Of a stretch of DNA of 40,060 nucleotides, positions 1,725-26,299 are shown in pieces. The notes beneath the pieces were generated by a model. That model saw only the letters and a list, made by a program, of their open reading frames with translations, had not been told where the DNA came from and made no database searches. Position numbers and translations under genes: made by a program. Origin of the DNA: Escherichia phage IMM-002; sequence record NC_048071.1. One strand, given 5' to 3'. The first letter of the stretch is position 1, and each line of letters starts with the position of its first letter.

Positions 1725-2459
1725 ATGAACGCACACGATAAAGTAATCATGAATAACCTGATGTCTCAGCTTCACGCTATAATCTGTAAGGCCGGTTATA
1801 AGGTGGAGTCGTTGGGGTCGGGCATCGCTGCGCAGGACCGCTGGGGAGCCGTTGAGGTCCTAGCCCGTGAGCATGGCTACAAGCTGTTAGGTCTGGGGCA
1901 CTTCGCCGCTGCCTTTGAGCATGAGGACCTGCCGGGGTATGCCATCAAGGTAGGCTTTAAGAAGGACGACTCAGGCGCTGCGTATGCTGCCTTCTGCCGA
2001 GAGAATGAGGGCATGGCTGGACTACCAGTCATCCATCTGGTCAAGCGCTTCAGCAGGGCTTACATGGTCGCTATGGACAAGTACCGCTCGCTTGAGGACA
2101 TCGGTGGGAACTACTGCCGGGAGGGCAAGACCTACGAGCAGCGAGTCTTAAACGTGTCGTGGCGTGTAGTCAACGCGATAATAGACCAGTGTGAACAGCC
2201 ATCCGAAGCACTGAGCTGGTGGCTTGACCAAGACGCTCGCATAGAGTTTGCACACGTCGAGACTCAGTACATCAAAGACCTTGCGCAGACTGCTAAGAAG
2301 ATTAACAGCTTCTTCTACGGGCTGGCATCGTTCGACACTCATCGCGCTAACGTGATGGTTGACAATAACGGGCGCTTGATAATCACGGACCCGGTGTCTT
2401 GGACTGCAAGCGACCATCAAGATGAGCTGCAAGGCAGGCTGAACGCAATAGCTGAGTGA
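1725..2459 (+). CDS. 0.7: Ser/Thr protein kinase, T7 gp0.7-like, kinase domain only
   Basis: 244 aa; GHFAAAFEHEDLPGYAIKVGFKKDDSGAAYAAFCR and ITDPVS match the T7 gp0.7 kinase core; C-terminal shut-off domain (about 115 aa in T7) absent. Confidence 0.85.
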   Translation: MNAHDKVIMNNLMSQLHAIICKAGYKVESLGSGIAAQDRWGAVEVLAREHGYKLLGLGHFAAAFEHEDLPGYAIKVGFKKDDSGAAYAAFCRENEGMAGLPVIHLVKRFSRAYMVAMDKYRSLEDIGGNYCREGKTYEQRVLNVSWRVVNAIIDQCEQPSEALSWWLDQDARIEFAHVETQYIKDLAQTAKKINSFFYGLASFDTHRANVMVDNNGRLIITDPVSWTASDHQDELQGRLNAIAE

Positions 2460-2525
2460 TAGGCGAGAGACCGCTACATCTAGTGGTCTCAAAGATTATC
2501 TCTCACAACATATAGGCAGGTGTAC

Positions 2526-2720
2526 ATGGGCTGGATACTTCTGGTCATCGGCTACGGGTTAATACTCGCAGTCATCACGAAAGACATCATCAAGGCACGT
2601 AAAGTCTACCGCTTCCAGTATGTGTCTCTGGGTCGCTGGACTGTAAGACAACCAAACGGACGCTTTATGCGTAACCTCGCAAACGTCTGGGACATCGCAA
2701 CCTTAGGGAGCAAACTGTAA
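2526..2720 (+). CDS. Small membrane protein (one N-terminal TM helix), hypothetical
   Basis: ATG 2526 (track ORF opens at GTG 2520); hydrophobic GWILLVIGYGLILAVI then basic tail; TAATG coupling to next gene. Confidence 0.4.
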   Translation: MGWILLVIGYGLILAVITKDIIKARKVYRFQYVSLGRWTVRQPNGRFMRNLANVWDIATLGSKL

Positions 2721-3142
2721 TGTGTAAGACCTGCGCTAAGTGTGGCGAGACCAAGAGTCTTGACCAGTTCGGCAGCAATAAGCGCAACAAGGATGGTCTG
2801 GACTATCGCTGCAAGACTTGCAGAAAGCAGGACGCCCAAGACAGGAGGCAGAAGGCACGAGAGGCCGGGACCTACAAGACGTCAAAGGCTGAAGAGAACC
2901 GAAAGCTGCGCTACGGTCTGGACCTAGAGGAGTACGAGAGCCTCCTACAGCAGCAGGGTGGAGTCTGCGCAATCTGCAAGGGTCAGTGTCCTACCGGGTG
3001 GAGACTGGCGGTGGACCACTCACACGAGACCGGGAAGGTGCGCGGACTGCTCTGCCTACAATGTAATACAGCGCTGGGCCAGTTCAAAGACTCACCGGAA
3101 CTACTGGCAAACGCAATCAAATATCTTCAGGAGAATCAATAA
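2720..3142 (+). CDS. HNH / Endonuclease VII-family nuclease (putative free-standing homing-type endonuclease)
   Basis: 140 aa; N-terminal Cys4 zinc ribbon (CKTCAKCGETK...YRCKTCR) plus GGVCAICKG...LAVDHSHETGKVRGLLCLQCNTALGQF, the Endo VII/HNH signature. Confidence 0.7.
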   Translation: MCKTCAKCGETKSLDQFGSNKRNKDGLDYRCKTCRKQDAQDRRQKAREAGTYKTSKAEENRKLRYGLDLEEYESLLQQQGGVCAICKGQCPTGWRLAVDHSHETGKVRGLLCLQCNTALGQFKDSPELLANAIKYLQENQ

Positions 3143-3393
3143 TGTACACGCACAAGACCTCACGTCACACCGTTCGTCAACAGCAGGAGCGCGACCGGGT
3201 ACTGCAAGCAAGACTCCGGGCCGAGGGCAATAAGGCCGAGCTGATGTGCCTGGCCTACGGTGGACGACCACGCACTGGCGATGGTAAACTTCTGGTCTCA
3301 GGCTGGAGGGCGATAGACCAGCGGTCATACATCAAGCACACGACCAAAGGTGACTTCAGTCATCTCCACGCTAACCCACTGATATGCAAGTAG
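3142..3393 (+). CDS. Hypothetical basic protein, coupled to the HNH gene (TAATG)
   Basis: 83-aa ORF, AGGAG RBS, no recognised domain. Confidence 0.4.
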   Translation: MYTHKTSRHTVRQQQERDRVLQARLRAEGNKAELMCLAYGGRPRTGDGKLLVSGWRAIDQRSYIKHTTKGDFSHLHANPLICK

Positions 3394-3398
3394 TTTGG

Positions 3399-3421
3399 AC
3401 TAAACTATCACTAAAGGACTC
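3399..3421 (+). promoter_or_regulatory. Phage-type promoter variant (TAAACTATCACTAAAGGAC) upstream of the RNAP gene
   Basis: Matches the phage promoter core except A at -2; predicted +1 G at 3416. Confidence 0.5.
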
Positions 3422-3496
3422 AAGGTCGAAAGACTCTAAGTCAGGACTGAAGTGAAAGACTTTAGTGATAAGACAACAGTTATAAGGACTTTAAGT

Positions 3497-6178
3497 ATGA
3501 GCGTCATCTCAATTGACAAGCACGACTTCTCTGATGTGTCGAATGCAATCGAACCATTCAACGTGCTGGCTGACCACTACGGTCAGGACCTAGCAGTAAA
3601 ACAGCTTCAGCTTGAGCATGAGGCGTACACTGAAGGCGAGCGACGTTTCATCAAGAACCTTGAGCGCCAAGCTGAGCGCGGGGAGCTGGCAGACAATCAG
3701 GTCGCCAAGCCACTGATGCAAACTCTGGTCCCGACCATCGCCAAGGCTGTTCGTGAGTGGCACGAAGGCCCGGACGGTAAGTCCTCGACCTCTCGCCCAA
3801 GCGTAGCGTTTACCATGCTGAGCACTGACGAGAAGGCTGTCAAAGACCGCTCTCTGCGAATCTCTGCTGAGTCTGCTGCGGTCATCATACTGAAAGTCAT
3901 CCTCAGCAAGCTGGTCAAGCCTGAGGGAATCCCGATAACGCCGATGGCCTCCGCGATTGGTCGCACACTTGAAGATGAAATCCGCTTCGGTCGCATCCGT
4001 GAGCAGGAGCAGGAGCACTTCAAGAAGACCATAGCTGAGAATCTGAAGAAACGTGCAGGAGCAAGCTACAAGAAAGCCTACATGCAAGCGGTCGAAGCCT
4101 CCATGCTGGAGCAAGGGCAACTGGCTGACGCTTGGGGGACTTGGAGTCCGACCGAGGCGGTACACGTAGGCATCAAGATGCTGGAGCTGGTCATCCAGTC
4201 CTCGCAACTGGTCGAACTGAAGCGCTACGGTGCGGGTAACGCTGCGGCAGACGTCGAGATGGTCCACCTGTCAGACTTCTGGGTCAAGAAGATGTCGCAA
4301 CGTGGCTTCTCACTGGCTGGCATCGCTCCGGTCTACCAACCTTGCGTCGTTCCACCTAAGCCGTGGACCGGGGTCGTGGGTGGTGGGTACTGGGCTAAGG
4401 GCCGAAGACCTCTCCCGCTGATTCGCTTAGGGTCCAAGGCTGCGGTCCAGCGCTACGAAGACGTGTACATGCCTGAAGTCTACGAGGCAGTGAATATCAT
4501 CCAGCAGACACCTTGGAAGGTGAACAAGAAGGTGCTGGACGTGGTGAACATGGTCGAGAAGCTGAACAACACGCCTATCGCTGACATCCCTCAGATGGAA
4601 CCGATGAAGCCTGAGGACTATGCAGGTGAGACCGAGGAAGAACTCAAAGCGTGGAAGAAAGCCGCTGCTGGTATCTATCGACGCGAGAAGGCCCGACAGT
4701 CCCGCCGTTTGTCCCTGAGCTTCATCGTCGGACAGGCGAACAAGTTCTCTCAGTTCAAGGCCATCTGGTTCCCATACAACATGGACTGGCGCGGTCGAGT
4801 CTATGCGGTCCCGATGTTCAACCCTCAGGGTAACGACATGCAGAAGGGCCTGCTGACTCTGGCAGTAGGCAAGCCAATCGGTGCGGACGGCTTCAAGTGG
4901 CTGAAGGTCCACGGTGCAAACTGCGCTGGTGTCGATAAAGTCACCTTCGAGGAGCGCATCAAGTGGGTCGAAGACAACCACGACAACATCCTCGCGGCTG
5001 CTAAGAGTCCGATGGATAGCATTGACTGGTGGGGTCAGTTAGACTCTCCGTTCTGCTTCCTCGCGTTCTGCTTCGAGTATGCTGGAGTCATGCACCACGG
5101 GCTGAGCTACTCCTGCTCACTGCCTATCGCGTTCGATGGGTCCTGCTCTGGGATTCAGCACTTCAGCGCGATGCTTCGTGACCACGTTGGTGGACATGCG
5201 GTCAACCTGACGCCAAGCGGGAAGGTCCAAGACATCTACCGCATTGTGTCAGACCGGGTGGAAGAACAGCTTAAGGAGCTGCTGGTCAACGGAAGTGACA
5301 ACGAGGTGAAGACCTTCGAGGACAAGAAGACAGGCGAGATTACTGAACGTCTGGTCCTTGGAACTCGCGAGCTGGCCCGTCAGTGGCTGACCTACGGGAT
5401 GTCACGCTCGGTCACTAAACGCTCGGTCATGACTCTGGCCTATGGGTCGAAGGAATACGGGTTCGCGGACCAAGTGTTTGAGGACACCGTGATGCCAGCG
5501 ATTGACAGCGGCAAGGGCGCGATGTTCACGGACCCAAGCCAAGCGTCACGCTTCATGGCTAAGATGATTTGGGATGCGGTAAGCGTGACCGTAGTTGCTG
5601 CGGTAGACGCGATGAAGTGGCTGCAAGGCGCTGCTAAACTGCTGGCTGCTGAGGTCAAGGACAAGAAGACAAAAGAGGTCCTTAAGCCTTGCCTCCCGGT
5701 TCACTGGGTAACGCCTGATGGCTTCCCGGTCTGGCAGGAATACCGAAAGAAGGACACCACCCGTCTGAACCTCCTGTTCCTTGGGTCGTTCAACCTGCAA
5801 CCGACAGTCAACAAAGGGTCTAAGAAAGAGCTGGACAAGCACAAGCAGGAGTCTGGTATCAGCCCTAACTTTGTACACTCACAGGACGGCAGTCACCTGA
5901 GGAAGACTGTGGTCCACACCCACCGCAAGTATGGCGTGATGTCCTTCGCAGTGATTCACGATAGCTTCGGGACCATCCCGGCTGACGCTGAGTTCCTGTT
6001 CAAGGGTGTCCGTGAGACGATGGTTGAGACCTACCGCGACAACGATGTGCTGCAAGACTTCTACGAGCAGTTCGCAGACCAGCTTCATGAGAGCCAGCGC
6101 GACAAGTTGCCCGAGCTGCCGAAGCGCGGTAAACTGAACATCGAAGACATTCTGTTATCTGACTTTGCATTCGCCTAA
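3497..6178 (+). CDS. 1: Single-subunit DNA-directed RNA polymerase (T7 gene 1 type)
   Basis: 893 aa from ATG 3497 (AAGGA RBS; track ORF opens at 3452); collinear with T7 RNAP incl. PWTGxxGGGYWA, AIWFPYNMDWRGRVYA, FCFLAFCFEYAGV, SGIQHFSAMLRD, HDSFGT and C-terminal SDFAFA. Confidence 0.97.
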   Translation: MSVISIDKHDFSDVSNAIEPFNVLADHYGQDLAVKQLQLEHEAYTEGERRFIKNLERQAERGELADNQVAKPLMQTLVPTIAKAVREWHEGPDGKSSTSRPSVAFTMLSTDEKAVKDRSLRISAESAAVIILKVILSKLVKPEGIPITPMASAIGRTLEDEIRFGRIREQEQEHFKKTIAENLKKRAGASYKKAYMQAVEASMLEQGQLADAWGTWSPTEAVHVGIKMLELVIQSSQLVELKRYGAGNAAADVEMVHLSDFWVKKMSQRGFSLAGIAPVYQPCVVPPKPWTGVVGGGYWAKGRRPLPLIRLGSKAAVQRYEDVYMPEVYEAVNIIQQTPWKVNKKVLDVVNMVEKLNNTPIADIPQMEPMKPEDYAGETEEELKAWKKAAAGIYRREKARQSRRLSLSFIVGQANKFSQFKAIWFPYNMDWRGRVYAVPMFNPQGNDMQKGLLTLAVGKPIGADGFKWLKVHGANCAGVDKVTFEERIKWVEDNHDNILAAAKSPMDSIDWWGQLDSPFCFLAFCFEYAGVMHHGLSYSCSLPIAFDGSCSGIQHFSAMLRDHVGGHAVNLTPSGKVQDIYRIVSDRVEEQLKELLVNGSDNEVKTFEDKKTGEITERLVLGTRELARQWLTYGMSRSVTKRSVMTLAYGSKEYGFADQVFEDTVMPAIDSGKGAMFTDPSQASRFMAKMIWDAVSVTVVAAVDAMKWLQGAAKLLAAEVKDKKTKEVLKPCLPVHWVTPDGFPVWQEYRKKDTTRLNLLFLGSFNLQPTVNKGSKKELDKHKQESGISPNFVHSQDGSHLRKTVVHTHRKYGVMSFAVIHDSFGTIPADAEFLFKGVRETMVETYRDNDVLQDFYEQFADQLHESQRDKLPELPKRGKLNIEDILLSDFAFA

Positions 6179-6190
6179 GGAGGCATCTAC

Positions 6191-6391
6191 ATGAAATTCG
6201 CACACAAGCAAACTGGCGTTAAAGGCGGTACTCAAATCGTGACCGTGACCGAGCACAATGGCAAAGGTCTGGTGAAGACCACGGTCATCCCAACCGAGAT
6301 GTCAAAGCAGCTTAACGTCCCATTCAAGTGGCTGGTGAAGCTGGTTCAAGAGCGACACGAGTCAGAACTCCGCGAGGTGGTAACGAAATGA
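6191..6391 (+). CDS. Hypothetical protein
   Basis: 66-aa ORF with strong TAAGGAGG RBS directly after RNAP stop. Confidence 0.55.
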   Translation: MKFAHKQTGVKGGTQIVTVTEHNGKGLVKTTVIPTEMSKQLNVPFKWLVKLVQERHESELREVVTK

Positions 6392-6465
6392 CAGACCTTA
6401 AGTGGCTGGCCCTATGGCTGGCCTTCTTAGCAGTGTACATCTTAATCCAACGCAGAAGAGGCTAA
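6388..6465 (+). CDS. 25-codon hydrophobic microprotein (MTDLKWLALWLAFLAVYILIQRRRG)
   Basis: ATGA overlap with upstream stop, GAGGTGG 7 nt upstream, one TM-like helix plus RRR anchor; below ORF-track size cut-off. Confidence 0.35.
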   Translation: MTDLKWLALWLAFLAVYILIQRRRG

Positions 6466-6471
6466 ACACCA

Positions 6472-6929
6472 TGTTCAACCGTAAACTGAAGGCACGTATC
6501 GCAGCACTTGAAGCAACCATACAGCGTCAGGACCACAACCTTGAGCTGGCTAATCGAGAGCAAGCACGGCTGAGGGCCAAACTACAAAAAGCTGAGACCA
6601 AGCGTGAAGTCGAGCCTTTACGTGTGAAGCGCATGGTCGGCCTGAAGTTCAAGGCGCTGTTCAACGGTATCTACCAGCCGACTGAGTTCAAGACCGGGCC
6701 GGGACCATGTGGAAAGACAGTAACGCACTTCACCACGAGCCGAGACGAGCGGACGCTGACCATCCACCAGCACCATACGGACGAGTCCAGCAAGAGCTTT
6801 GAGTATCGGCTGAGCGACATCGACGGTCGCATCCAGTATGACTACGAGCTGGTGCAGGTTTACGGTGAGGAGGCAGAGCGGGAACGTATGGTCCAAGCCC
6901 TCCGCAACAGACCGCGCTTCATAGCCTAA
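6472..6929 (+). CDS. Hypothetical protein with N-terminal coiled-coil
   Basis: ATG 6472 preferred (GTG 6402 in track overlaps the microprotein); KLKARIAALEATIQRQDHNLELANREQARLRAKLQKAE heptad-like region. Confidence 0.5.
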
Positions 6930-6947
6930 ACTATCACTATAGGATTA
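6925..6947 (+). promoter_or_regulatory. Phage RNAP promoter (phi1.1-equivalent)
   Basis: CTAAACTATCACTATAGGATT, +1 about 6942. Confidence 0.8.
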
Positions 6948-6992
6948 GACTCAAGGTCATGACTCAAAGTCGCGGCCTTCATGATTAACCCT
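6946..6992 (+). promoter_or_regulatory. Conserved stem-loop, candidate RNase III processing site (R1.1-equivalent)
   Basis: TAGACTCAAGGTCATGA...TCATGATTAA; lower stem GGUCAUGA/UCAUGAUU with G-U pairs, upper hairpin GAC-UCAAA-GUC. Confidence 0.5.
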
Positions 6993-7035
6993 GTAGCAAA
7001 GCTACTACCTAACTCATCCAATCAGGAGCTACACC

Positions 7036-7215
7036 ATGTATCAGACCATTATCAACTTCGAGCGCATCCGTGAACGTCAGCAGACTGAAGGCTACATTCC
7101 GAAGGGCCGTAAGCTGAACAAGACAAAGCGTGGCGGTGGCGTGAAGGGTGCTTTCCGTAACGCTGAAGGTAAGGACTCTCTGGTCAACCAAGAGAAGTAT
7201 TTCGTAGGAGCGTAA
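7036..7215 (+). CDS. 1.1: gp1.1-like small basic protein
   Basis: 59 aa (below track cut-off), AGGAG RBS; GRKLNKTKRGGG matches T7 gp1.1 KGRKLNKTKRDRSHKR. Confidence 0.6.
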   Translation: MYQTIINFERIRERQQTEGYIPKGRKLNKTKRGGGVKGAFRNAEGKDSLVNQEKYFVGA

Positions 7216-7217
7216 CC

Positions 7218-7466
7218 ATGAGCAGACGTTGGTTATTCGATGCGTCCACGAGCCAGTGGTCCTCGTTAGGCCGGACACACCGCGAGATGGGTGAATCAGG
7301 ACTTGAGGTCCGAATGGATGAGCTGCCTTGCTCCCGGACAACTCTGGTCAGAATCACTGAAGCAGATGGGAAGCCTCTGGTATCCCGCGAGTTTACCGAA
7401 CATGAAATCTTTAGCTGTGAGCAATGGTGCTTGCAGGTGCTGAACGACTATAGGAGCTGGAAATAA
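7218..7466 (+). CDS. 1.2: gp1.2-like protein (T7 gp1.2 inhibits host dGTPase)
   Basis: 82 aa, position between 1.1 and ligase; C-terminal NDYRSWK resembles T7 gp1.2 YDQLKDWK. Confidence 0.55.
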   Translation: MSRRWLFDASTSQWSSLGRTHREMGESGLEVRMDELPCSRTTLVRITEADGKPLVSREFTEHEIFSCEQWCLQVLNDYRSWK

Positions 7467-8551: not shown

Positions 8552-8562
8552 CTGAACGTCAA

Positions 8563-8597
8563 CCCAGTGGTCTTCGCGGACTGCTGGGTTTCTTTGT
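8563..8597 (+). terminator. Rho-independent terminator, early terminator TE-equivalent
   Basis: GC-rich hairpin CCCAGTGGTC-TTCGCG-GACTGCTGGG followed by TTTCTTTGTG, directly after ligase as in T7. Confidence 0.7.
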
Positions 8598-14019: not shown

Positions 14020-14037
14020 GCTATCACTGTAGGATAG
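14015..14037 (+). promoter_or_regulatory. Phage RNAP promoter (phi4.7-equivalent)
   Basis: CTAAGCTATCACTGTAGGATAG, +1 about 14032. Confidence 0.7.
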
Positions 14038-14076
14038 ACTCAAGGTCATTCACTTCGAGTGGCCTTTATGATTAGA
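14035..14076 (+). promoter_or_regulatory. Conserved stem-loop, candidate RNase III site (R4.7-equivalent)
   Basis: TAGACTCAAGGTCAT-TCACTTCGAGTGG-CCTTTATGATTAG; lower stem GGUCAU/AUGAUU, upper stem CACU/AGUG around a UCG loop. Confidence 0.5.
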
Positions 14077-26237: not shown

Positions 26238-26260
26238 CCTTAACTATCACTATAGGGACT
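26238..26260 (+). promoter_or_regulatory. Phage RNAP promoter (phi13-equivalent)
   Basis: CCTTAACTATCACTATAGGGAC, +1 about 26255; leader shares TACTTTAAGAGGAGACTTTA with the 18007 promoter leader. Confidence 0.85.
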
Positions 26261-26299
26261 ATAGGCCCTTTAAGTTATAATACTTTAAGAGGAGACTTT

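What the first reader, a model, noticed from the sequence alone, without database searches (positions are those of the whole stretch)
6191..6929. Two uncharacterised genes between RNAP and the phi1.1-type promoter
A 66-aa ORF with a consensus RBS and a roughly 150-aa protein with an N-terminal coiled-coil occupy a slot that is nearly empty in T7. They would be transcribed as part of the early operon, since they sit upstream of the first clear phage promoter downstream of RNAP.
Basis: seen in the sequence. Interest (0 to 1): 0.4.

Follow-up and report, generated by a model that had tools for sequence, protein, structure and literature searches.

The report
Three small early genes after phage RNAP
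The stretch between the RNA polymerase gene and the next phage promoter of this T7-like (Kayfunavirus) phage holds three real but already catalogued small genes of unknown function (one is a relative of phage T3 gene 1.05), so the finding is correct but ordinary.

Summary
The window is almost certainly the Escherichia phage IMM-002 genome (Kayfunavirus).

Positions 6191-6929 carry three tightly packed + strand genes, not two:
- **ORF A (6191-6391):** 66 aa, basic, predicted beta3-alpha2 fold, phrog_8082. It sits directly after gene 1 in about 218 phage records.
- **Missed mini-gene (6388-6465):** a 25-aa single-pass membrane peptide. It overlaps ORF A's stop (ATGA) and is under purifying selection in its own frame.
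- **gp1.05 homologue (6471-6929):** 152 aa, a coiled coil plus the Pfam PF25755 "T3 gene 1.05" beta domain.

A phage promoter (6925-6947) overlaps the gp1.05 stop and is followed by an RNase III-type hairpin, as in T3.

The genes lie inside the host-RNAP early unit, which ends at a terminator at 8561-8590. A second phage promoter upstream of gene 1 (3399-3421) probably transcribes them too.

No function is established for any of the three, in T3 or elsewhere. No PDB fold analogue was found for the gp1.05 domain.

gp1.05 is a present/absent cassette, and about 28% of family representatives carry an N-terminal membrane anchor. My inference is that these are accessory host-interaction proteins acting at or near the inner membrane.

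Novelty is low: all three are already annotated in the source record.

The parts
3399..3421 (+). Phage-RNAP promoter-like site upstream of gene 1 (core CACTAAAGG, +1 about 3416). It would let the phage polymerase transcribe gene 1 and the three small genes.
   Evidence: Matches the window consensus ctaaactatCACT(A/T)TAGG. The equivalent site is annotated 'phi' promoter in EcoDS1. Followed by a GACTCAAGGTC element.
3452..6178 (+). Gene 1, T7-type single-subunit RNA polymerase (context; upstream boundary of the slot).
   Evidence: 908-aa ORF. Annotated as RNA polymerase in all related records.
6177..6183 (+). Shine-Dalgarno AAGGAGG of ORF A, overlapping the RNAP stop codon.
   Evidence: Read from the sequence.
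6191..6391 (+). ORF A: 66-aa basic protein (pI 9.9) with a predicted three-stranded sheet plus two helices. Kayfunavirus-wide family phrog_8082.
   Evidence: E 1.2e-38; 218 phage records, 216 of them full length; 91% mean column identity; pN/pS 0.32 in frame; pLDDT 94.6.
6388..6465 (+). Mini-gene: 25-aa single-pass membrane peptide MTDLKWLALWLAFLAVYILIQRRRG. Its start overlaps ORF A's stop (ATGA) and it has a GAGGTGG Shine-Dalgarno 7 nt upstream.
   Evidence: Found in 28 of 29 related loci, always 25 aa, including a divergent lineage (L037: MSATLCLIIWLSWMGIYILTQHRRG). pN/pS 0.28 in frame against about 1 out of frame; 20 variable third positions against 10 and 10. Annotated in IMM-002 and GA2A.
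6471..6929 (+). Gene 1.05 homologue: 152 aa, with a coiled-coil helix (aa 4-44), a six-strand beta domain (aa 50-130, PF25755) and a C-terminal helix (132-145).
   Evidence: PF25755, E 6e-26. (phrog_8103, E 7e-53). (T3 gp1.05, 35% identity over aa 50-133). (pLDDT 95.5). (invariant G76 C80 Q100 F110 G119 R120). (pN/pS 0.26 in the domain).
6925..6947 (+). phi1.1-type phage promoter (+1 about 6942). It contains the TAA stop of gene 1.05.
   Evidence: Same layout as the T3 gene 1.1 promoter overlapping the end of gene 1.05. Annotated 'phi' at the same place in EcoDS1.
6953..6979 (+). Hairpin after the promoter, an RNase III-type processing site candidate (R1.1 equivalent).
   Evidence: Fold of 6944-7035: -20.8 kcal/mol, z -2.46. 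A paralogous copy after the promoter at 14025 keeps the outer stem and changes the inner stem on both sides. T3 has an annotated RNase III site at the same position. No Rfam family matches.
7036..7215 (+). Gene 1.1 homologue (context; downstream boundary).
   Evidence: PF08200, E 9e-11.
7218..7466 (+). Gene 1.2-slot protein, annotated as a dGTPase inhibitor family (context).
   Evidence: phrog_6515, E 1e-34.
8561..8590 (+). Early terminator (TE equivalent) after the ligase gene; end of the host-RNAP transcription unit that includes the three genes.
   Evidence: 13-bp stem followed by a T run. TE is annotated at the same position in EcoDS1.

Best explanation
**Shown**
- Positions 6191-6929 are a compact block of three co-directional protein-coding genes of a Kayfunavirus.
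- ORF A (66 aa, soluble, basic) is coupled through an ATGA overlap to a 25-aa single-pass membrane peptide.
- Five nucleotides later comes a 152-aa homologue of T3 gene 1.05: a coiled-coil stalk carrying the PF25755 beta domain.
- The pair ORF A plus peptide is a fixed feature of the genus.
- Gene 1.05 is a ~470-bp cassette that is present or absent between the peptide gene and the phi1.1 promoter.

**Inferred from layout and T7/T3 precedent**
- All three genes are made early. The host RNA polymerase reads through from the left-end promoters to TE (8561-8590).
- They are probably transcribed again by the phage polymerase from the promoter upstream of gene 1.
- The transcript is cut at the hairpin after 6947.

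**Inferred function (about 35% for the specific version)**
- These are accessory host-interaction proteins (takeover, exclusion or counter-defence), not replication or virion parts.
- gp1.05 would work as a coiled-coil oligomer that presents its small beta domain to a host target at or near the cytoplasmic face of the inner membrane.
- The domain's invariant Gly-rich Cys loop (GxGxCG) and the Q..D, F, GR motifs would form the binding site or a metal site.
- The 25-aa peptide inserts N-out/C-in, with its RRRG end inside.
For: **Gene reality:**

**Coupling and ribosome-binding sites:**

**Third gene**
- Conserved at 25 aa in 28 of 29 loci, including loci that lack gene 1.05.
- Also present in a divergent lineage with different nucleotides.
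- Frame-specific purifying selection.

**gp1.05 family membership:**

**Conserved slot:** the order RNAP, 1.05, 1.1, 1.2, ligase recurs across T3-like, T7-promoter-type and Kayfunavirus contigs.

**Cassette behaviour**
- 17 sampled loci have gene 1.05 and 11 lack it.
- In 9 of those lacking it, the promoter starts 6-7 nt after the peptide gene.
- About 90 full-length matches against 218 ORF A records.

**Modular N-termini:** of 86 representatives, 24 carry an N-terminal TM helix (plus 2 borderline), 22 to 24 carry a long non-TM (mostly coiled-coil) N-terminus, and 38 are domain only.

**Structure:** a confident model with helix 4-44 and a six-strand domain.

**Neighbourhood:** the adjacent 1.2 slot is also mosaic, with at least 4 different genes. 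It encodes a host-enzyme inhibitor in T7 (annotation).

**Transcription signals:**
Against: - No experiment or homology links any of the three proteins to a function. Pfam, NCBIfam and PADLOC give nothing beyond PF25755.
- The PDB sequence profiles are empty.
- The window's gp1.05 has no membrane anchor of its own.
- Coiled-coil forms occur in other phages with no neighbouring TM peptide gene (L032, L034).
- The peptide persists where gene 1.05 is absent, so a peptide-gp1.05 partnership is not supported.
- ORF A is nearly invariant across the genus. That fits a core role better than an arms-race accessory role.
- Promoter and RNase III activity are inferred from sequence only.
Confidence: 0.55

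Rival explanations
1. ORF A is a small nucleic-acid-binding or RNA-polymerase-binding regulator. It would act as a cofactor or modulator of the phage or host polymerase and be made in step with gene 1.
For: - It always lies within about 13 nt (or one extra ORF) of the gene 1 stop.
- It is basic: pI 9.9, with invariant K29, K39 and K46.
- It is very strongly conserved.
Against: - There is no sequence similarity to any known regulator.
- T7 and T3 polymerases work without such a protein.
- It is translationally coupled to a membrane peptide, which is not expected for a transcription factor.
Confidence: 0.15
2. The 25-aa peptide and gp1.05 are the two halves of a split membrane-anchored gp1.05. 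The peptide would supply the anchor that many relatives carry fused.
For: - 24 to 26 of 86 family representatives have the layout TM helix, basic stretch, coiled coil, domain.
- An example sits in the same slot in a T3-like contig (P0255).
- In the window the peptide has the same polarity (short N-terminus, TM, RRRG) and ends 5 nt before gp1.05.
- The trio also occurs in the divergent lineage L037.
Against: - The peptide gene is kept, still 25 aa, in at least 9 sampled phages that lack gene 1.05, including K1F.
- It is coupled to ORF A, not to gp1.05.
- Coiled-coil gp1.05 forms in L032 and L034 have no TM neighbour.
- There is no sequence similarity between the peptide and the fused anchors.
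- No conserved frameshift or read-through frame links the two genes, because the gap is 4 or 5 nt in different phages.
Confidence: 0.15
3. gp1.05 serves phage DNA replication at the primary origin, which in T3 is annotated between the 1.05 promoter and the first codons of gene 1.05.
For: - The T3 record X05031 places the primary origin at 145-221, overlapping the gene 1.05 start at 180.
- T3-like contigs have AT-rich ACTTTAAG repeats just upstream of gene 1.05.
- gp1.05 is basic, with charge +8.
Against: - T7 replicates from the same region with no gene there.
- Many Kayfunaviruses lack the gene.
- In the window no promoter or AT-rich repeat precedes gene 1.05.
- A quarter of the family is membrane-anchored.
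- The overlap in T3 concerns DNA, not the protein.
Confidence: 0.07
4. The 25-codon frame is not translated. Its conservation would reflect a nucleotide-level element, such as a ribosome-binding or spacer region or part of an origin.
For: - The last 15 nt (CAACGCAGAAGAGGY) are invariant across the sampled loci. They contain the AGAGG that serves as the Shine-Dalgarno for gp1.05.
- Most records do not annotate it.
Against: - pN/pS is 0.28 in frame against 0.97-1.23 in the other frames, and third-position changes dominate.
- The length stays exactly 25 codons and the hydrophobic core plus Q(R/H)RRG end are kept in L007, L036 and L037 despite many nucleotide changes.
- It has its own Shine-Dalgarno and an ATGA coupling.
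Confidence: 0.08

Closest known systems
Phage T3 gene 1.05 protein (Pfam PF25755, Phage_T3_1_05; phrog_8103; 'gp1.05' of EcoDS1 and phiSG-JL2)
   Same: - Homologous beta domain: 90.6 bits, E 6e-26, and 35% identity to T3 over aa 50-133.
- Same genomic slot between gene 1 and gene 1.1.
- The next phage promoter overlaps the gene's 3' end and is followed by an RNase III-type hairpin.
   Different: - T3 gp1.05 is 90 aa, domain only. It has its own promoter (phi1.05) and the primary origin directly upstream.
- The window's protein adds a 45-residue coiled coil and a C-terminal helix.
- The window's protein has no promoter of its own and follows two extra genes.
- The function is unknown in both.
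Kayfunavirus conserved hypothetical protein after gene 1 (phrog_8082; K1F CKV1F_gp06, EcoDS1 'gp1.1', CR44b '1.05', IMM-002 HOU26_gp12)
   Same: ORF A is this protein. It is 100% identical to IMM-002 gp12, matches the PHROG full length, and holds the same position.
   Different: Nothing differs. The family has no Pfam entry, no solved structure and no assigned function. Its gene names in records are inconsistent: '1.1' or '1.05'.
T7 early and middle host-takeover proteins (for example the gp1.2 dGTPase inhibitor and the gp2 RNAP inhibitor), as a functional analogy only
   Same: They are small and expressed early. They sit in the same mosaic region between gene 1 and the ligase gene, with variable presence among relatives.
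   Different: There is no sequence or convincing fold similarity. No target is known, so the analogy is positional.
Small single-pass bacterial or phage membrane peptides (type I toxin-like peptides; T3 gp1.5, 25 aa), as an analogy only
   Same: Similar size of 25 aa, with one hydrophobic helix and a charged end.
   Different: No sequence relationship has been shown, and no toxicity or partner is known. The GenBank label 'DUF2842 domain-containing' is not reproduced against current Pfam.

Membership tests
PF25755 Phage_T3_1_05 (T3 gene 1.05 family) | Profile HMM score above the Pfam gathering threshold | tested here: met
   90.6 bits against a cut-off of 27, E 6.1e-26, aa 55-125 on profile positions 2-73 of 73.
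PF25755 Phage_T3_1_05 (T3 gene 1.05 family) | Family-wide conserved residues (GxGxCG loop, Q, D, K.F.Y, GR) | tested here: met
   In the 86-sequence alignment, G76, C80, Q100, F110, G119 and R120 are invariant. F73, G78, G81, V84, D104, K108 and Y112 are at least 90% conserved. All are present in the window protein.
PF25755 Phage_T3_1_05 (T3 gene 1.05 family) | Syntenic position between gene 1 (RNAP) and gene 1.1 in Studiervirinae | tested here: met
   Same gene order in T3, EcoDS1 and five metagenomic contigs.
PF25755 Phage_T3_1_05 (T3 gene 1.05 family) | A known biochemical function | not testable with these tools
   None is described. The protein is listed as hypothetical/unknown in PMC4283147 and PMC4925675.
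phrog_8082 (Kayfunavirus post-RNAP 66-aa protein) | Full-length profile match and position directly after gene 1 | tested here: met
   E 1.2e-38, residues 1-66 of 66. 216 of 218 phage records match full length.
DUF2842 (label of the 25-aa protein in the IMM-002 record) | Detectable match to the Pfam DUF2842 profile | tested here: not met
   No DUF2842 hit even at E up to 10 for four variants of the peptide. The only hit is a DUF5325 match at E 0.17, below threshold.
P-loop NTPase (because the window protein reads GPGPCGKT, which fits GxxxxGK[ST]) | Conserved Walker A Lys and Ser/Thr in a strand-loop-helix context | tested here: not met
   The Lys is replaced by Leu or Glu in several members, and the following residue is T, V, E, N, S, K and others. 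The motif lies in a loop between two predicted strands, 67-74 and 83-91, not before a helix.
HYR_4C / Ig-like surface repeat (PF23237) | Profile-profile homology across the domain | tested here: not met
   The phmmer hits to repeat proteins P0253, P0267 and P0289 reduce to a 21-column PGxCGxtVT motif. hhalign gives probability 27.8%.
T7-group phage promoter | Match to the phage's own 23-bp promoter consensus at an intergenic or gene-end position | tested here: met
   6925-6947 carries ctaaactatCACTATAGG, identical in its core to 7 other sites in the window. Activity was not tested.
T7-group RNase III processing site (R1.1 type) | Stable hairpin with an internal bulge just downstream of the promoter, with conserved structure | tested here: inconclusive
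   Hairpin at 6953-6979 within a fold of z -2.46. One paralogous copy shows two-sided changes in the inner stem. There is no Rfam model and cleavage was not tested.

The most novel reading that the evidence does not exclude
The PF25755 (gp1.05) domain could be a new fold. I found no PDB analogue for it.

Studiervirinae phages would deploy it as a coiled-coil or membrane-tethered oligomer against a host envelope-associated target, for example a membrane-bound defence system or a factor needed by competing phages.

The genus-wide pair of ORF A and the 25-aa membrane peptide would be a separate two-part early module acting at the membrane.
Probability: 0.25. Interest if true: 0.5.

Novelty: already known. 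Interest (0 to 1): 0.2.

Why it matters
The practical value is modest.

- **Annotation fixes:**
  - The gene 1.05 start should be 6471, not 6414 or 6402.
  - The 25-aa membrane peptide gene is conserved but annotated in only 1 of the 9 related phage records I inspected (GA2A), plus the IMM-002 source record.
  - The gene names '1.1' and '1.05' are used inconsistently across records.
- **Accessory region:** the stretch from gene 1 to the ligase gene in Kayfunaviruses is mosaic. Gene 1.05 is a clean present/absent cassette.
- **Ready-made experiment:** natural pairs of phages with and without the cassette allow a direct test of what T3 gene 1.05 does. That question has been open since the T3 sequence record X05031.
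- **If it proves to be a host-interaction factor:** the membrane-anchored variants would point to where it acts.

Tried and rejected
1. **Homology to characterised families.** Pfam, PHROGs, NCBIfam and PADLOC gave only PF25755 and unknown-function PHROGs.
2. **PDB by sequence profile.** Only coiled-coil noise appeared, at E of 0.15 or worse.
3. **Fold searches.**
   - Foldseek against PDB gave a best E of 0.06 and TM of about 0.2.
4. **HYR-like/Ig repeat homology,** suggested by phmmer hits to giant repeat proteins. Rejected by hhalign: 21 columns, 27.8%.
5. **Walker A reading of GPGPCGKT.** Rejected.
6. **DUF2842 label of the peptide.** Not reproduced.
7. **Longer gp1.05 starts or a frameshift fusion with the peptide.** Rejected because the spacing varies between 4 and 5 nt and the extension frame is not conserved.
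8. **Profile search for remote ORF A relatives.** It returned only 194 proteins; the 120 listed are unnamed or 'hypothetical', with no Pfam domain.
9. **tblastn with the 25-aa peptide.** No hits, probably because of the low-complexity filter.
10. **Rfam on the whole window.** No hits.
11. **Literature.**
    - Searches for gp1.05 and gene 1.05 found only annotation tables.
    - A search for PF25755 found nothing.
    - Searches on IMM-002 and K1F early genes gave no functional data on these genes.
    - The phage accessory-gene screen preprint does not mention T7-like phages or RNAP.

Full report
**Identity of the window**

The 66-aa product of 6191-6391 is 100% identical to 'hypothetical protein HOU26_gp12 [Escherichia phage IMM-002]', which lies on a 40,060-bp contig. 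An IMG/VR contig of the same length matches at 100% (L011). The window is therefore almost certainly the IMM-002 genome, a Kayfunavirus (T7-like, Studiervirinae; NC_048071 according to PMC12785254). The closest other records are Klebsiella, Enterobacter and Escherichia Kayfunaviruses at 80-92% DNA identity across 6100-7100.

**What is in 6191-6929**

Gene 1 (RNA polymerase) ends at 6178. Three + strand genes follow.

1. **ORF A, 6191-6391, 66 aa.**
   - AAGGAGG ends 7 nt before the ATG.
   - It matches phrog_8082 over its full length at E 1.2e-38.
   - It has no Pfam, NCBIfam or PADLOC match.
   - It occurs in 218 phage records, nearly all Kayfunavirus, always directly after gene 1 or one ORF later.
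   - It is 91% identical per column among 19 cluster representatives.
   - pN/pS is 0.32 in frame against 1.6-1.7 out of frame.

MTDLKWLALWLAFLAVYILIQRRRG.
   - Its ATG overlaps ORF A's TGA (ATGA), with GAGGTGG 7 nt upstream.
   - It is present, always 25 codons long, in 28 of 29 related loci, including loci that lack gene 1.05.
   - It also occurs in a divergent lineage as MSATLCLIIWLSWMGIYILTQHRRG.
   - pN/pS is 0.28 in frame against about 1 out of frame. Variable columns by codon position are 10, 10 and 20.
   - It is annotated in IMM-002 itself and in GA2A, but in none of the other eight annotated relatives I inspected.

3. **Gene 1.05 homologue, 6471-6929, 152 aa.**
   - GenBank starts it at 6414 (171 aa).
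   - That extension overlaps the peptide gene in another frame, and it is closed or out of frame in GA2A, ST21 and EcoDS1-type phages.
   - The MF..LK start is conserved, and most cluster members are called at 151-153 aa.

**The 152-aa protein**

- Pfam PF25755 'Enterobacteria phage T3 gene 1.05 protein' matches aa 55-125 at 90.6 bits (cut-off 27).
- tblastn aligns T3 gp1.05 at 35% identity over aa 50-133.
- EcoDS1 names its orthologue gp1.05.
- AF2 with an 86-sequence alignment gives pLDDT 95.5. The model has helix 4-44, six sequential strands over 50-130, and helix 132-145.
- Purifying selection is strongest in the beta domain (pN/pS 0.26), against 0.52 in the coiled coil.
- Across 86 representatives from a 1.84-billion-protein library, G76, C80, Q100, F110, G119 and R120 are invariant.

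The N-terminus is modular across the family. Of the 86 representatives, 38 are domain only (like T3, 90 aa). About 22 have a long N-terminus without a TM helix, mostly coiled coil. Between 24 and 26 begin with a transmembrane helix followed by a basic stretch and usually a coiled coil.

Every context I fetched puts the gene in the same slot between gene 1 and gene 1.1.

Among Kayfunavirus-type loci the gene is a clean cassette. Seventeen sampled loci have it and eleven do not. In nine of those the phage promoter starts 6-7 nt after the peptide gene. K1F is one that lacks it.

**Structure comparisons**

- Foldseek against PDB gives nothing below E 0.06.
- I found no solved analogue of the beta domain. 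The search used the whole model, and AFDB and BFVD were not searched.

**Signals around the genes**

The window's phage promoter consensus is about ctaaactatCACTATAGG.

- One copy lies at 6925-6947 and contains the gp1.05 stop codon, exactly as the T3 gene 1.1 promoter overlaps the end of T3 gene 1.05.
- It is followed by a hairpin at 6953-6979. A paralogue of that hairpin after the promoter at 14025 keeps the outer stem and changes both sides of the inner stem. This fits a T7-type RNase III site, which is annotated at the same place in T3.
- No promoter core with one mismatch or fewer lies between 3417 and 6935.
- No terminator-like site on the + strand lies between gene 1 and the ligase gene. 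A 13-bp-stem terminator sits at 8561-8590, where EcoDS1 annotates TE.
- A further promoter copy (core CACTAAAGG) lies at 3399-3421, upstream of gene 1. EcoDS1 annotates the equivalent as a phage promoter.

They are probably also transcribed by the phage enzyme.

In T7 the slot is indeed gene-free: gene 1 ends at 5822, phi1.1A is at 5848, phi1.1B at 5923, and gene 1.1 starts at 6007.

**Function**

Nothing is established. T3-group papers list gene 1.05 as hypothetical or unknown. No paper in the searchable library discusses it further.

My inference rests on these points:
- early expression;
- a mosaic neighbourhood, with at least four different genes in the 1.2 slot;
- cassette-like presence or absence;
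- modular oligomerisation and anchoring modules;
- a conserved small domain.

From these I infer that gp1.05 is an accessory host-interaction protein. It would act as an oligomer and, at least in the anchored relatives, at the cytoplasmic face of the inner membrane.

ORF A and the peptide form a separate, genus-wide, translationally coupled pair, one soluble and basic and the other membrane-inserted. Their near-invariance suggests a more central role, but I cannot say which.

**Rivals considered**

- ORF A as a polymerase or nucleic-acid binder.
- The peptide plus gp1.05 as a split anchored protein.
- gp1.05 as a replication-origin factor.
- The peptide frame as an untranslated element.

None of these is better supported than the main explanation.

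**Leads that failed**

- The Walker-A-like string GPGPCGKT is not conserved and sits in a hairpin loop.
- The similarity to HYR-like repeats is a 21-column motif.
- The 'DUF2842' label of the peptide is not reproducible.

**Verdict**

However, they are already catalogued conserved hypotheticals, and one of them belongs to the T3 gene 1.05 family. What this work adds:
- the third gene;
- the corrected start of gene 1.05;
- the cassette behaviour of gene 1.05;
- the family's membrane-anchored variants.

Interest is low.

Noticed in passing
window 1725-3390: The early gene just upstream of gene 1 appears split by an insertion of about 1.2 kb. The 153-aa Pkp-1 protein aligns at aa 1-72 to 1725-1940 and at aa 72-153 to 3145-3390. 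The inserted DNA carries an Endonuclease VII family gene at 2720-3142 (PF02945, E 1.7e-25), so this looks like a homing-endonuclease-type insertion.
   Followed up: partly
window 3399-3421: A phage-promoter copy (core CACTAAAGG, with the T3-like A at -2) lies directly upstream of the RNA polymerase gene. It implies autogenous transcription of gene 1 by the phage enzyme. The equivalent site is annotated 'phi' in EcoDS1. T7 has no such promoter annotated in the region I inspected.
   Followed up: partly
window 3418-3475, 6948-6985, 14034-14075: Three promoters are each followed by a GACTCAAGGTC-containing hairpin, which are candidate RNase III sites. The copies after 6947 and after 14025 differ by two-sided changes in the inner stem.
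   Followed up: partly
window 26248-26265: Two promoter cores lie in tandem, 9 nt apart: CACTATAGG then GACTATAGG.
   Followed up: no
window 7218-7466 and the same slot in L001, L002, L005-L010: The gene 1.2 slot after gene 1.1 holds at least four different proteins among close relatives. Their starts are MSRRWLFDAS..., MGMFSRAH..., MNHYELKEF... and MGRLYSGNLN.... This is a second mosaic accessory slot next to the one studied.
   Followed up: no
L004 (EcoDS1) 1966-2196: EcoDS1 carries an extra 76-aa ORF between gene 1 and ORF A. The junction right after gene 1 therefore also accepts insertions.
   Followed up: no
L030, L032, L034 (T3-like contigs), about 90 nt upstream of gene 1.05: Direct repeats of ACTTTAAG (3-4 copies) lie between the 1.05 promoter hairpin and the gene 1.05 start. 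This is where T3 has its annotated primary origin. No counterpart exists upstream of gene 1.05 in the window.
   Followed up: no
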